DNA of 35,146 nt from a virus (IMGVR_UViG_2909309443_000004), one strand, 5' to 3'; counted from the stretch's first letter, positions 5,160-8,093 are shown. Program-made: numbers and translations. The notes: generated by a model from the letters alone, not told the origin.

Positions 5160-5744
5160 TTATTGTTTGCTTTTTTCGTTCTGGTTGATGACAAATTCAA
5201 TGTAACTTTCGATCTTTGCCTTCTCTGTTTCAGGTAACAATGCGTAGCGCGAGCGGTCATAGTTGATAGTCGCGGGGTCGTGCGGGTGAATCAGTAATTC
5301 ATATCCGTGACGCCCAAATGCGGATGCAACATTCTCCAGGGTGGAAATGGAAACGCTGACCTCATTGTTTAACAGGCGGCTGATTGTTACCTGGGCGACG
5401 CCGGATGCGCGGTGAAGTTTTCCCTGCGTTGAAAGGTCGCGGCTTTCGCTCATCCAGCGTTCCAGGTTGTGAGCCGCCAGTTGACCAATGTCGCTTGGTC
5501 CGACAGGCTGAAAACCTTCCTGAGAAAGCGAGCGATCGATATCAAGCCAGTTACGGGGTTTATTGGCGGCAGCTTCAATTTTTCGCGCAACCTGGTCGCC
5601 GATAACCTTCTTGCCAAGAGCCCAGCGGTTTACCAGATTTGCCTGAGTTCCAAGTTTTTCAGCCATCCGCGTCTGAACACCATTGAATTCACGGTCGATC
5701 AAGTCGTTGAGATTTTGCCTGCGGACGTCCTGGATACTTTTCAT
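5160..5744 (-). CDS. Prophage repressor (CI-like), HTH protein without recognisable S24 peptidase domain
   Basis: 194-aa ORF divergent from Cro-like gene; two HTH-like segments (GVQTRMAEKLGTQANLVNRWALGKK and LHRASGVAQVTISRLLNNEVSVSISTLENVASAF); no Ala-Gly/Ser-Lys LexA-like cleavage module evident. Confidence 0.7.
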   Translation of the reverse strand: MKSIQDVRRQNLNDLIDREFNGVQTRMAEKLGTQANLVNRWALGKKVIGDQVARKIEAAANKPRNWLDIDRSLSQEGFQPVGPSDIGQLAAHNLERWMSESRDLSTQGKLHRASGVAQVTISRLLNNEVSVSISTLENVASAFGRHGYELLIHPHDPATINYDRSRYALLPETEKAKIESYIEFVINQNEKSKQ

Positions 5745-6279: not shown

Positions 6280-6480
6280 ATGGAAATCATTACACGTATT
6301 GATGCCGCAAAGCGCGGACTTAAACGCTACTACACCGGAAAAACATGTAAGCACGGACATGACAGTGAACGCTGGGTTTACAACGGACACTGTGTTGAGT
6401 GCACCATGGAATCAAACCGTCGTATCAGGGCAGAGATTAAGCAGATCATGATTAATTCCTCCCCACAACATTCAAGCTGA
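6280..6480 (+). CDS. Small Cys/His-rich protein (possible zinc-binding regulator), cII position
   Basis: Track ORF 6217..6480 (TTG); likely ATG at 6280 (MEIITRIDAAKRGLKRYYTGKTCKHGHDSERWVYNGHCVECT...); C-x-H-x-H ... C-x2-C arrangement. Confidence 0.45.
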   Translation: MEIITRIDAAKRGLKRYYTGKTCKHGHDSERWVYNGHCVECTMESNRRIRAEIKQIMINSSPQHSS

Positions 6481-6495
6481 TAGCGGAGATTAATC

Positions 6496-7311
6496 ATGAG
6501 CAGACATGCAACAGATTGGGCCTGGGAGACAGATCCAGGTAGCTCGTCATTAAAGCTCATACTGCTCTCGATGGCTGACAGAGCCGATGAATATAACCTC
6601 TGCTACCCCAGCATAGAACGCCTCGTTAAAGACACTTGCCTGAATAAAAAAACCGTGCAGGCCGGACTTATATCGCTCATGAAAATGGGGCTTATTTCAG
6701 ATACCGGGGAGAGAAAGGGAGCGACAAAAAGAGTGCGGGTTTTCTCTCTTAATATAACCAAAAACGGGAACATTAAAGGCAACCGAGAGGGGGGCAATGA
6801 ACCCGAAAACGGTAATGTTACCGAAAACGGGAATATACCCAAAAACGGGATGTTGAATGATCCCAAAAACGGGATGTTGAATGATCCCAAAAACGGGATC
6901 CAGAACCAGTCATATAACCAGTCATTTAACCAAGAGAGGGAGAGCAGGACAAAAAACGGGGATTCTGTGCATCATGACCCCGGCGCAAACAACGCCGTGA
7001 TGAATAACTTTGTTCCTCCTGGTGGGCCAGGGCAATTAGGCAAATTTGTCATGCATGAACAATGGCAGCCATCAGATGACTTTCTTCGGAAAAGCTCATT
7101 GCAGGGGATCTACCTGGACAGTCTGCCAACGGCACAGGAACTTGCAGAGTTCAGAATTTACTGGATGGCTGAGGGTAAGGCATACCATCAGGCACAGTGG
7201 GAGCAGAAGCTGGCAAGGCGGCTGCAGATTAGCAGACAGAAGCAATCAACATTACCTGATAACAACGTTCCGCACTGGAACAGCCCTGAAGCATGGGAGG
7301 ATTTCTTGTGA
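6496..7311 (+). CDS. Replication initiator, lambda O-like N-terminal HTH domain with DnaT-like C-terminal region
   Basis: 271-aa ORF; N-terminus (..LKLILLSMADRADEYNLCYPSIERLVKDTCLNKKTVQAGLISLMKMGLI..) typical of phage replisome organiser HTH; contains iteron array in linker. Confidence 0.7.
   Translation: MSRHATDWAWETDPGSSSLKLILLSMADRADEYNLCYPSIERLVKDTCLNKKTVQAGLISLMKMGLISDTGERKGATKRVRVFSLNITKNGNIKGNREGGNEPENGNVTENGNIPKNGMLNDPKNGMLNDPKNGIQNQSYNQSFNQERESRTKNGDSVHHDPGANNAVMNNFVPPGGPGQLGKFVMHEQWQPSDDFLRKSSLQGIYLDSLPTAQELAEFRIYWMAEGKAYHQAQWEQKLARRLQISRQKQSTLPDNNVPHWNSPEAWEDFL
6757..6903. repeat. Iteron array (putative phage origin of replication) inside initiator gene: ~6 copies of CCAAAAACGGGA-like unit, including an exact 24-bp tandem duplication
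   Basis: Direct repeats accaaaaacgggaacatt / cccgaaaacggtaatgtt / accgaaaacgggaatata / cccaaaaacgggatgttgaatgat (x2) / cccaaaaacgggatcc; encode KNGN/ENGN peptide repeats. Confidence 0.65.
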
Positions 7312-8093
7312 ACAACGTTTTTACCGCGATACAAAACCGTGACGGAGAAGCCCTTTCTCGCATGTCAGGTTATGAGCATCAGTACACCAACAATGACAAC
7401 GTAGTGAACATGTCAGCAGAGAGGCTTGTTGATGCCCTTTTCAAACAGTTGAAACAACTGTTTCCGGCGGCAGTGGTAACCAACCTGAAGACGCCAGAGC
7501 AGGAAGTTGCTGCAAAACAGCAGTGGATTGCTGCGTTTGCCGAAGGGGGGATCCGAACCCGTGAACAGGTTTCTGCTGGTATGCGCCACGCCCGCGCCAG
7601 TGAATCTCCGTTCTGGCCGTCGCCAGGGCAATTTATCAAGTGGTGTAAAGACAGCAAGATGGTTCTTGGCGTCACCATTGACGATGTGATGGCGGAGTTT
7701 CACCGGTACAGCAAGGAAAAAAGTTTATATCCTGGTGGTCCCGAAAGATTCCCGTGGCGGCATCCGGTTATGTACTGGGTCGTATGTGATACACGCCGTG
7801 CAATGTATCAGCGCCAGCTTAGCGAGATTGAGGTTGAGAAACACGCGCGCAGGCTGCTCGATGATTGGGCGAAAAAGGTGGCTTCCGGACAGCAGATACC
7901 CGATCCGGTGATCAGCATACAGGCAAAGCCAGAGCCCATGAGTACGCCTCCGGACACAGGGAGAGACGTTTACCATCCACCAGGGCGAAGTTTCGGGTGC
8001 ATGCCTAACGCCGCCACCCTTGGGGGAATAACACCGGCGCAGTGGCTGATGGAGGAATACAGGCGGGGAAAGGCGGCAGGATTTATCAAGTAA
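7293..8093 (+). CDS. Replication protein P-like helicase loader (lambda P family)
   Basis: Segment FPAAVVTNLKTPEQEVAAKQQWIAAFAEGGIRTREQVSAGMRHARASESPFWPSPGQFIKWCKD closely parallels lambda P (..QWVLAFRENGITTMEQVNAGMRVARRQNRPFLPSPGQFVAWCRE..); alternative GTG start at 7308 overlapping O-like stop. Confidence 0.85.
   Translation: MGGFLVNNVFTAIQNRDGEALSRMSGYEHQYTNNDNVVNMSAERLVDALFKQLKQLFPAAVVTNLKTPEQEVAAKQQWIAAFAEGGIRTREQVSAGMRHARASESPFWPSPGQFIKWCKDSKMVLGVTIDDVMAEFHRYSKEKSLYPGGPERFPWRHPVMYWVVCDTRRAMYQRQLSEIEVEKHARRLLDDWAKKVASGQQIPDPVISIQAKPEPMSTPPDTGRDVYHPPGRSFGCMPNAATLGGITPAQWLMEEYRRGKAAGFIK

What the first reader, a model, noticed from the sequence alone, without database searches (positions are those of the whole stretch)
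6757..6903. Origin-like iteron array embedded in the replication initiator gene, with a perfect 24-bp tandem duplication
Six CCAAAAACGGGA-type direct repeats at ~18-24 bp spacing lie inside the O-like gene, as lambda ori iterons lie inside O. The exact duplication of cccaaaaacgggatgttgaatgat suggests recent iteron copy-number change, which alters ori strength and the initiator linker (PKNGMLND repeated).
Basis: seen in the sequence. Interest (0 to 1): 0.45.

Follow-up and report, generated by a model that had tools for sequence, protein, structure and literature searches.

The report
Replication origin inside phage initiator gene
The repeats are real and are most likely the phage's replication origin, written into the gene of the protein that binds them, as in phage lambda; this is an expected layout, but it is shared by a large, little-studied family of phage initiators.

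Summary
Observation confirmed. Six CC[A/G]AAAACGG[G/T]A sites (starts 6758, 6803, 6821, 6839, 6863, 6887; spacing 45, 18, 18, 24, 24) and an exact 24-bp unit x2.6 lie in gene 6496-7311 of a phiV10-like phage. The gene encodes an HTH_36 winged helix, a disordered linker and a DnaT-like domain. A lambda-P-family gene follows.

The constraint is on the DNA, not the peptide.
- All 79 diverse homologues carry such an array in the linker. In 65 the copies fall in more than one reading frame.
- The spacing plan (about 45, 17/18, 17/18, 22/24, 22/24) is conserved.
- The last site is a dyad whose arms covary.
- The first residue of the recognition helix predicts the outer arm bases.
- Three 12/13-mers always follow; here they are at 6902-6938.
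- N-terminus and iterons swap together, independently of the C-terminus.

Best reading: a lambda-type origin inside the initiator gene, read by the gene's own N-terminal domain. No experiment supports this yet.

The "recent duplication" idea is only partly right. Copy number is polymorphic among close relatives (one to five 24-bp steps), but this window carries the modal allele (50 of 78). Three sites at 24-bp spacing are an ancestral family feature.

This is a new member of a known kind, of moderate interest.

The parts
6496..7311 (+). Replication initiator gene (271 aa): N-terminal HTH_36 winged helix, disordered linker, C-terminal DnaT-like domain
   Evidence: ORF. Pfam HTH_36 at aa 18-67 (E 1.8e-10) and DnaT at aa 184-252 (E 1.1e-15). 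98-99.9% DNA identity to phiV10 gp43 and relatives. AF2 model: aa 1-89 pLDDT 72-94, aa 90-215 mostly below 50.
6496..6756 (+). Coding region of the winged-helix DNA-binding domain (aa 1-87); recognition helix aa 51-63, wing tip aa 75-78
   Evidence: Secondary structure of the model. Residue 51 predicts the iteron outer arm bases across the family.
6754..6771 (+). Iteron 1 (ATAACCAAAAACGGGAAC), poor dyad, 45 bp upstream of iteron 2
   Evidence: A 45-48 bp first step recurs in relatives.
6799..6816 (+). Iteron 2 (GAACCCGAAAACGGTAAT), degenerate
6817..6834 (+). Iteron 3 (GTTACCGAAAACGGGAAT), degenerate
6835..6852 (+). Iteron 4 (ATACCCAAAAACGGGATG)
6859..6876 (+). Iteron 5 (GATCCCAAAAACGGGATG), dyad ATCCC/GGGAT
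   Evidence: the sequence read.
6883..6900 (+). Iteron 6, the terminal and best dyad (GATCCC-AAAAAC-GGGATC), directly abutting the 12-mers
   Evidence: Arm covariation of the terminal iteron in 56 distinct family sequences.
6902..6938 (+). Three chained 12-mers (AGAACCAGTCAT A / ATAACCAGTCAT T / TTAACCAAGAGAG): candidate unwinding or single-strand element
   Evidence: Sixty-eight of 75 family loci have exactly three copies at 12- or 13-bp steps directly after the last iteron. Duplex stability here is only at the 92nd percentile of instability.
6950..6961 (+). Weak seventh iteron-like site (CAAAAAACGGGG) in a purine-rich stretch; significance uncertain
   Evidence: 2 mismatches.
7045..7251 (+). 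Coding region of the DnaT-like C-terminal domain (aa 184-252)
   Evidence: Pfam PF17948. Matches solved E. coli DnaT C-terminal domain chains at E 7e-21.
7308..8093 (+). Lambda-P-family helicase-loader gene; start overlaps the initiator stop (GTGA). An ATG at 7293 is an alternative start.
   Evidence: Pfam Phage_lambda_P E 1.5e-56. phiV10 annotation of gp44.

Best explanation
The array is the phage's origin of replication, built on the lambda plan but with a different initiator family. Inferred steps follow. The gene product's N-terminal winged helix (aa 1-87) binds the six repeats that lie in the DNA coding for its own disordered linker. Dimers sit on the dyad-symmetric sites 5 and 6. Weaker or half-site binding occurs at sites 1-4, at the conserved spacing 45-18-18-24-24. 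The resulting nucleoprotein complex destabilises the adjacent three 12-mers (6902-6938). The C-terminal DnaT-like domain, whose homologue in E. coli DnaT binds single-stranded DNA, and the downstream lambda-P-family protein then bring in the host DnaB helicase. What is shown here: the repeats exist; the constraint on them is at the DNA level; their arms covary; and they co-evolve and co-transfer with the N-terminal domain. What is inferred: binding itself, unwinding at the 12-mers, and origin activity.
For: 1. Layout matches lambda. The winged helix ends at aa 87 and the first iteron starts at codon 88. In lambda the iterons (L005 735-819) start at codon 117, right after the DNA-binding domain, and a P gene follows in both.
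2. Lambda iterons ATCCCTCAAAACGAGGGA and the window's GATCCCAAAAACGGGATC share the TCCC...AAAAC...GGGA dyad plan.
3. Family-wide presence. All 77 full-length homologues from 80 species-level loci plus two phages have HTH_36. TRF finds linker repeats in 78 of 79. The best 11-mer family has 3-9 copies in the linker against 1-3 in N-terminal coding, C-terminal coding or shuffled linker sequence.
4. DNA-level constraint. Copies fall in more than one reading frame in 65 of 79 loci. Steps of 17, 22 and 23 bp are common. For example, L166 reads the same CCAAAAACGGG as TQKRE, YQKRD, PENG and PKNG.
5. The spacing plan (about 45, 17/18, 17/18, 22/24, 22/24) is conserved whatever the frame.
6. Dyad arms of the terminal iteron covary. 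Paired cells are 85.1% against 71.7% in shuffles (0 of 500). There are 48 double-change cells against 17.3 in shuffles and at most 9 in slid controls. G-T wobble is not enriched (6 of 37 non-complementary arm cells), which fits duplex DNA better than RNA.
7. Recognition code. The alignment columns with the highest mutual information with arm position 3 are residues 55, 51, 76 and 59. These are one face of the predicted recognition helix 51-63 plus the wing tip. Pairs sharing residue 51 share the outer arm dinucleotide in 68-94% of cases in every identity bin. Pairs differing at residue 51 do so in 7-8% of cases at 30-65% identity. Four control columns show no comparably strong or consistent effect.
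8. Module swaps. GF-2 joins this N-terminus, iterons and 12/13-mers to a lambda-O C-terminus (62% identity). L168 joins the same DnaT-like C-terminus to an unrelated N-terminus and a different iteron set at 23, 23, 22 bp.
9. An 8461-bp circular E. coli plasmid record with no typed replicon carries only this cI/cro/initiator/P block as candidate replication genes, with the same array.
10. Domesticated DopC homologues, which no longer act as origins, are reported to lack iterons (PMC5509034).
Against: No experiment was found for any member of this family. The phiV10 and epsilon15 genome papers are not in the held library, and the phiV10 GenBank record marks no origin. This window has no strongly AT-rich unwinding tract. 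The 12-mer region is only at the 92nd percentile of duplex instability, and GC is about 42-43%. In this window all six sites happen to be in one frame (spacings are multiples of 3), so the frame argument rests on relatives. Sites 1-4 are poor dyads. The residue-51 code is correlative, and relatedness is controlled only by identity bins. The plasmid record could be an assembly artefact. Homology of the N-terminal domain to lambda O is not demonstrated (hhalign probability 4%).
Confidence: 0.78

Rival explanations
1. The sites are bound by the initiator but serve control rather than initiation (autoregulation of the O-P operon, titration or handcuffing, or exclusion of related phages). The true start site would lie elsewhere.
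For: Everything that supports binding fits this equally. In iteron plasmids and in lambda, cloned iterons also inhibit replication (lambda inhibition phenotype, PMC3349717, listed). This window has no strong AT-rich tract.
Against: The array is always followed by three conserved 12/13-mers in a fixed register, which is an origin-like layout. No second repeat cluster exists in the window. GF-2 keeps the array exactly where lambda has its origin, fused to lambda's right-hand ori and C-terminal part.
Confidence: 0.1
2. A protein-level repeat: a low-complexity Asn/Gly/Pro linker expanded by slippage, with no function for the DNA sequence itself.
For: In this window all copies are in one frame and read PKNG/PENG. 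The linker is predicted disordered. Copy number varies in units of 6 and 8 codons.
Against: In 65 of 79 relatives the same DNA motif is read in two or three frames, with steps of 17, 22 and 23 bp. The 12/13-mers are read as QNQSYNQSFNQ here but QNQSLEPVIEP in phage Her. Arms covary as a palindrome. The peptide differs widely between lineages while the DNA plan is kept.
Confidence: 0.04
3. The dyads act as hairpins in RNA or in single-stranded DNA. Possible roles include mRNA stability, translational pausing between the two domains, or a primosome-assembly-type signal linked to the DnaT-like domain.
For: The region 6745-6945 folds better than shuffles (z = -3.44) and predicts hairpins at iterons 5 and 6. 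Arm covariation is what a hairpin would also show. Some relatives have GAAA or AAAG centres.
Against: G-T wobble is not enriched among non-complementary cells. Several lineages have full 16-bp palindromes with no loop (GTCCCAACGTTGGGAC, GTACCAATATTGGTAC). Sites 1-4 here have almost no stem. Arm bases track a residue of the protein's recognition helix. Spacing in base pairs, not the sequence between sites, is conserved.
Confidence: 0.05
4. The sites are bound by another factor: a host protein, or the small Cys/His-rich product of ORF 6280-6480.
For: Binding has not been shown for any protein. The 12/13-mers are conserved even where the iteron arms change, which could point to a conserved host factor.
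Against: Arm sequence changes with the initiator's own residue 51. The array travels with the N-terminal domain across hosts from Enterobacterales to Desulfovibrio and across different gene neighbourhoods.
Confidence: 0.03

Closest known systems
Phage lambda ori-lambda inside gene O (four iterons bound by O, AT-rich region, P as helicase loader)
   Same: Direct repeats with internal dyad symmetry lie in the part of the initiator gene that codes the linker just after the DNA-binding domain. The motif plan is similar (TCCC..AAAAC..GGGA). Spacing is 20-24 bp. The next gene is P-family. Copy number of iterons varies among relatives.
   Different: The N-terminal domain belongs to a different Pfam family (HTH_36 versus Phage_rep_O). 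There are six sites in two spacing classes (18 and 24 bp) instead of four. Three 12-mers replace the 40-bp AT-rich tract. The C-terminus is DnaT-like rather than the lambda O C-terminal domain.
DopC/DopE of Cellvibrionales and Oceanospirillales (Brezellec et al. 2017, PMC5509034)
   Same: Same domain pair, HTH_36 plus a DnaT C-terminal motif, followed by a P-like gene. The authors derive the pair from lambdoid O/P genes.
   Different: DopC is chromosomal, is reported to have no iterons, and does not coincide with the GC-skew origin. The window's gene is in a phage and has a full array. I could not retrieve a DopC locus to check this myself.
Iteron plasmid origins (RK2, F, pPS10, R6K): Rep winged-helix proteins, iterons, 13-mer unwinding element
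   Same: Winged-helix initiator, about 17-24 bp iterons, and short repeated 12/13-mers next to the last iteron. Foldseek gives weak hits to plasmid RepA-DNA structures (5kbj, 4pql) among generic winged helices.
   Different: There is no Rep_3 or related Pfam match. The origin is inside the coding sequence. No DnaA boxes were seen. Whether the 12/13-mers are bound as single strands is unknown.
Edwardsiella phage GF-2 and Vibrio phage Her / H20-like initiators
   Same: Same N-terminal domain (57-58% identity), 24-bp iterons and 12/13-mers.
   Different: Different C-termini: lambda-O type in GF-2, unknown type in Her. Different iteron arms. The first copies are in other reading frames.
E. coli DnaT (replication-restart primosomal protein)
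   Same: The C-terminal 85 residues match solved DnaT C-terminal domain chains at E 7e-21.
   Different: DnaT has no winged-helix origin-binding domain and no iterons. The database label 'primosomal protein I / DnaT' for this phage gene describes only its C-terminal third.

Membership tests
Lambda-type origin inside the initiator gene (ori-lambda layout) | Several direct repeats with internal dyad symmetry inside the initiator gene, between its DNA-binding domain and its C-terminal domain | tested here: met
   Six sites at 6754-6900, starting at codon 88, right after the winged helix (aa 1-87). Sites 5 and 6 are good dyads.
Lambda-type origin inside the initiator gene (ori-lambda layout) | The repeats are bound by the initiator's own N-terminal domain | not testable with these tools
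   Indirect support only. Residue 51 of the recognition helix predicts the arm dinucleotide (68-94% versus 7-8%). N-terminus and iterons swap together.
Lambda-type origin inside the initiator gene (ori-lambda layout) | An easily melted (AT-rich) region next to the last iteron | tested here: inconclusive
   Three 12-mers at 6902-6938, conserved in 68 of 75 relatives. However, duplex instability is only at the 92nd percentile and GC is about 42%.
Lambda-type origin inside the initiator gene (ori-lambda layout) | A helicase-loader gene immediately downstream | tested here: met
   Gene 7308-8093 matches Pfam Phage_lambda_P at E 1.5e-56.
Lambda-type origin inside the initiator gene (ori-lambda layout) | The fragment replicates autonomously when O and P are supplied | not testable with these tools
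   Hint only: an 8461-bp circular E. coli plasmid record with this module and no typed replicon.
Lambda O protein family (Pfam Phage_rep_O, PF04492) | N-terminal domain matches PF04492 | tested here: not met
   The window protein matches HTH_36, not PF04492. Lambda O matches PF04492 at E 5.7e-36 and does not match HTH_36. BLASTP shows no similarity. hhalign aligns aa 42-84 to lambda O 74-116 but with 4% probability.
Lambda O protein family (Pfam Phage_rep_O, PF04492) | C-terminal P-interacting domain homologous to that of lambda O | tested here: not met
   The window C-terminus is DnaT-like. By contrast, GF-2's C-terminus is 62% identical to lambda O.
HTH_36 + DnaT_C 'O-like' proteins (phage relatives of DopC) | HTH_36 N-terminus, DnaT C-terminal domain, P-like gene downstream | tested here: met
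   The architecture is described in PMC5509034.
DopC proper (domesticated chromosomal gene) | Chromosomal, no iterons, not at the replication origin | tested here: not met
   The window is a phiV10-like phage genome and carries a full iteron array.
Iteron-plasmid Rep proteins (Rep_3 and relatives) | Rep_3-type tandem winged-helix initiator | tested here: not met
   No Rep_3 match in any of 77 members. There is one weak RP-C N-terminal match and four DnaD_N matches. Fold hits are generic winged helices.

The most novel reading that the evidence does not exclude
The window exemplifies a family-wide origin design that I did not find described in the held literature. Initiators with an HTH_36 N-terminus occur in prophages of Gamma-, Beta- and Deltaproteobacteria, some Stx-phage 'Eru' types and Acinetobacter phages. 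In this design they carry, inside their own linker-coding DNA, five to seven dyad sites in a fixed spacing plan, followed by exactly three 12/13-mers (A-G-A-A-Y-C-W-N-Y-C-A-W-T). A simple recognition code applies: the first residue of the recognition helix sets the outer arm bases (R with GT, K with AT, E with CC, I with CA or CC, L with AA). If true, origin specificity, and hence replication compatibility between co-resident prophages, could be read from sequence. The invariant 12/13-mers would then be a new sequence-specific unwinding or single-strand element.
Probability: 0.35. Interest if true: 0.55.

Novelty: new member of a known kind. Interest (0 to 1): 0.42.

Why it matters
For this phage the result locates the probable origin. 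phiV10 is used as an E. coli O157 reporter phage. The result also warns that the linker of gp43 cannot be edited or codon-optimised freely, because it carries cis-acting sites.

More generally, thousands of database proteins are labelled 'primosomal protein I', 'DnaT-like' or 'helix-turn-helix domain protein'. Many of these are origin-binding initiators with the origin inside the gene. The array is a ready marker for annotating phage origins.

The repeat-number polymorphism gives a natural series for testing how site number affects firing.

The array also breaks short-read assemblies: many truncated proteins end in it.

Tried and rejected
1. A protein search with the 87-aa N-terminus returned almost only truncated fragments. 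I used pattern-based locus searches instead.
2. The first viral-contig scan returned 80 near-identical phiV10-like loci. These were useful for copy-number counts but not for diversity.
3. DopC, the published iteron-free homologue, could not be retrieved. Both remaining protein searches were swamped by E. coli variants, and the paper's supplement is not held. That control therefore rests on the paper alone.
4. The epsilon15 and phiV10 genome papers are not held. Six literature searches found no description of iterons in HTH_36 initiators.
5. hhalign of the N-terminal profile against lambda O was inconclusive.
6. Foldseek of the AF2 model gave only generic winged helices with E above 0.005.
7. 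An AT-rich unwinding tract was looked for and not found in strong form.
8. RNA folding does not discriminate between the hairpin and duplex-site readings.
9. The GATC cluster in iterons 5 and 6 is not unusual for the window as a whole.
10. IHF and DnaA-box consensus sequences were checked by eye in 6770-6960 and nothing convincing was seen; no formal scan was run.

Full report
WHAT IS THERE

The window is a phiV10-like (Uetakevirus) temperate phage. Gene 6496-7311 is 98-99.9% identical in DNA to the 'putative primosomal protein' or 'replication initiation protein' genes of phiv142-3, EC.W1-9, PAS61 and phiV10. The gene lies in the early-right operon. The order is: a two-HTH repressor on the minus strand (5160-5744), a small cro-position gene, a terminator, a small Cys/His-rich ORF, then this gene, then a lambda-P-family gene.

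There are six CC[A/G]AAAACGG[G/T]A sites starting at 6758, 6803, 6821, 6839, 6863 and 6887, with spacing 45, 18, 18, 24, 24. A 24-bp unit is repeated 2.6 times without a mismatch at 6838-6899. With up to two mismatches the motif occurs 12 times in the window against 3.15 expected, and 7 of the 12 lie within 204 bp on one strand. Directly after the last site there are three 12-mers, AGAACCAGTCAT-A, ATAACCAGTCAT-T and TTAACCAAGAGAG (6902-6938).

THE PROTEIN

Pfam finds HTH_36 (aa 18-67) and a DnaT DNA-binding domain (aa 184-252). The C-terminal 85 residues match solved E. coli DnaT C-terminal chains at E 7e-21.

An AlphaFold model built from a shallow alignment is confident only for aa 1-89. That part is a winged helix with helices 3-11, 17-29, 40-47 and 51-63 and a beta hairpin at 67-74/79-85. 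The model gives pLDDT of about 30 for aa 90-180. The iterons (codons 88-135) and the 12-mers (codons 136-148) therefore lie in DNA that codes a disordered linker. This is the same position as in lambda, where the annotated iterons begin at codon 117 of O, just after its DNA-binding domain.

IS THE CONSTRAINT ON DNA OR ON PEPTIDE?

In this window all spacings are multiples of three, so the question cannot be settled here. I collected 80 loci from one-genome-per-species bacterial genomes that encode the same N-terminal domain. They include Enterobacterales, Vibrio, Pseudoalteromonas, Acinetobacter, Marinomonas, Desulfovibrio and Betaproteobacteria. I added phages Her and GF-2.

- All 77 full-length proteins have HTH_36, but only three have a DnaT C-terminus.
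- TRF finds tandem repeats in the linker of 78 of 79 loci, with periods of 24 but also 17, 18, 22 and 23.
- A detector for the best 11-mer family finds 3-9 copies (median 5-6) in 240 nt of linker. It finds 1-3 in the N-terminal coding part, the C-terminal coding part or shuffled linkers.
- In 65 of 79 loci the copies occupy two or three reading frames. In a Klebsiella relative, for example, CCAAAAACGGG is read as TQKRE, YQKRD, PENG and PKNG.
- The spacing plan is kept whatever the frame. The window has 45, 18, 18, 24, 24. Acinetobacter loci have 46, 17, 17, 22, 22 or 45, 17, 17, 24, 24.
- The 12/13-mers behave the same way. Sixty-eight of 75 loci have exactly three copies, at steps of 12 (94 cases) or 13 (48 cases), and 51 of 75 have them in more than one frame. 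The DNA AGAACCAGTCAT is read QNQSYNQSFNQ here and QNQSLEPVIEP in phage Her.

The conserved object is therefore the DNA, not the peptide.

WHAT READS THE SITES?

The terminal iteron sits at a fixed distance from the 12/13-mers, so it can be aligned without gaps in 56 distinct sequences. Its two arms are complementary and covary:
- 85.1% of cells are paired, against 71.7% in column shuffles (0 of 500 reach the observed value).
- There are 48 cells with changes on both sides, against 17.3 in shuffles and at most 9 when the partner is slid by 1-3 columns.
- All six pairs show double changes.

Examples of the dyads are GATCCC/GGGATC (window), GTACCA/TGGTAC, GTGCCA/TGGCAC, GTCGGA/TCCGAC and CCGCCG/CGGCGG. 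G-T combinations make up 6 of 37 non-complementary arm cells, which is what chance gives. Several lineages have loop-less 16-bp palindromes. Both points fit a duplex site for a dimer better than an RNA hairpin, although the RNA of 6745-6945 does fold better than shuffles (z = -3.44).

Mutual information between protein alignment columns and arm position 3 is highest for window residues 55, 51, 76 and 59. In the model these are one face of helix 51-63 (i, i+4, i+8) plus the tip of the wing.

I controlled for relatedness with identity bins. Pairs of loci sharing residue 51 share the outer arm dinucleotide in 68-94% of cases in every bin. Pairs differing at residue 51 do so in 7-8% of cases at 30-65% identity. 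Four control columns show no comparably strong or consistent effect. The associations are R with GT (36 of 40), K with AT (7 of 12), E with CC (5 of 7), I with CA or CC, and L with AA. This is correlative, but it is the pattern expected if the gene's own winged helix reads the sites.

MODULE SWAPS

GF-2 has this N-terminus, three GATCCCAAAATTGGGAT iterons and the 12/13-mers. It then continues into a C-terminus 62% identical to lambda O, including the DNA that corresponds to lambda's right-hand ori palindrome.

Conversely, a second Marinobacterium stanieri prophage has a DnaT-like C-terminus 61% identical to that of locus L087. Its N-terminus is unrelated, and it has a different set of five sites, GGTCGGAAAAATNTCCGA, at 23, 23 and 22 bp.

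N-terminus and iterons thus move together, independently of the C-terminal recruitment domain.

COMPARISON WITH LAMBDA AND OTHER KNOWN SYSTEMS

The layout is lambda's, and the motifs even look alike: ATCCCTCAAAACGAGGGA in lambda against GATCCCAAAAACGGGATC here. Family membership fails, however. Lambda O is Phage_rep_O (PF04492, E 5.7e-36) with no HTH_36 match. BLASTP finds nothing. A profile comparison aligns aa 42-84 with lambda O 74-116 at only 4% probability.

The domain pair HTH_36 + DnaT_C followed by a P-like gene was described by Brezellec et al. 2017 (PMC5509034) for DopC/DopE, chromosomal genes derived from lambdoid O/P. They report no iterons in dopC and place the chromosomal origin elsewhere by GC skew. 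I read it the other way. Where the gene has stopped being an origin the repeats are gone, so the protein does not need them. I could not fetch a dopC locus to verify this.

Stx-phage 'Eru' papers list HTH_36 proteins next to cI without discussing an origin (PMC8951638). The phiV10 GenBank record annotates terminators but no origin or repeats in gp43. I found no paper describing this array, but the two primary genome papers are not in the held library.

THE 'RECENT DUPLICATION'

Among 78 near-identical relatives from IMG/VR, 50 have exactly the window's architecture. The number of 24-bp steps is 1 in 9 loci, 2 in 62, 3 in 5, 4 in 1 and 5 in 1. The number of 18-bp steps ranges from 0 to 4. One locus has a third full AACCAGTCAT copy, as phiV10 itself does. 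Protein clusters of 271, 279, 287, 291 and 311 aa in E. coli show the same variation.

Copy number is therefore polymorphic, but this window carries the modal allele. Three terminal sites at 22-24 bp spacing are an old family feature. The perfect identity of the copies is better explained by homogenisation within the array than by a recent gain in this genome.

WEAK POINTS

- There is no experimental evidence for any family member.
- The window lacks a strongly AT-rich tract. The 12-mers are at the 92nd percentile of duplex instability, with GC of about 42%.
- Sites 1-4 are poor dyads.
- An 8461-bp circular E. coli plasmid record with no typed replicon carries cI, cro, YdaT, an HTH_36-DnaT initiator with the same kind of array, and P. 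This suggests a lambda-dv-like mini-replicon, but it may be an assembly artefact.

VERDICT

The origin reading is well supported by comparative sequence evidence (confidence about 0.78 for 'initiator-binding sites that form the origin'). The 'recent change' reading is not supported for this genome. The finding is a new member of a known kind, of moderate interest. The family-wide design and the apparent recognition code are the parts worth following up.

Noticed in passing
window 6902-6938: Three chained 12-mers (AGAACCAGTCAT-type) directly after the last iteron. The same element is present in three copies at 12- or 13-bp steps in 68 of 75 relatives, whatever their iteron sequence. It may be an unwinding or single-strand-binding element.
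   Followed up: yes
window 6859, 6883, 6897: Three GATC (Dam) sites sit in the arms of the two best iterons. Window-wide GATC is at chance level (138 against 137.6). Some relatives encode a Dam-type methylase next to the initiator (L003 1344-1907; L087 3277-3933). Methylation control of binding is conceivable.
   Followed up: partly
L167 (NZ_CP148379.1, whole record) and L166 2074-3093: An 8461-bp circular E. coli plasmid record with no typed replicon carries only a cI/cro/YdaT/HTH_36-DnaT initiator/P block plus a few prophage genes. Its initiator has the same kind of array. It may be a natural lambda-dv-like mini-replicon or an assembly artefact.
   Followed up: partly
L168 6001-6894 (iterons 6317-6418): A second Marinobacterium stanieri prophage initiator has the same DnaT-like C-terminus but an unrelated N-terminus with no Pfam match. 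It has five different iterons, GGTCGGAAAAATNTCCGA, at 23, 23 and 22 bp.
   Followed up: partly
L002 (PP488543.1, phage BP9, 133.4-137.2 kb) and PP350014.1 (phage PH444): Records of a 138-kb Vequintavirus and of a 115-kb unannotated phage carry a phiV10-like immunity and replication block near one end. These look like chimeric assemblies or prophage contamination.
   Followed up: no
proteins P0001-P0036; KP869107.1 and KP869108.1: Many database proteins of this family are truncated within the repeat region on short contigs. Two O157 typing-phage records begin or end inside this gene. The iteron array appears to break short-read assemblies.
   Followed up: no
window 6280-6480: A small ORF just upstream of the initiator encodes a Cys/His-rich protein (CKHGH...CVEC) with no Pfam match. 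It is conserved in phiV10 as gp42. Its function is unknown.
   Followed up: no
window 7293-7311: The P-like gene overlaps the end of the initiator gene (GTGA at 7308-7311, as annotated in phiV10), which suggests translational coupling of initiator and loader.
   Followed up: no
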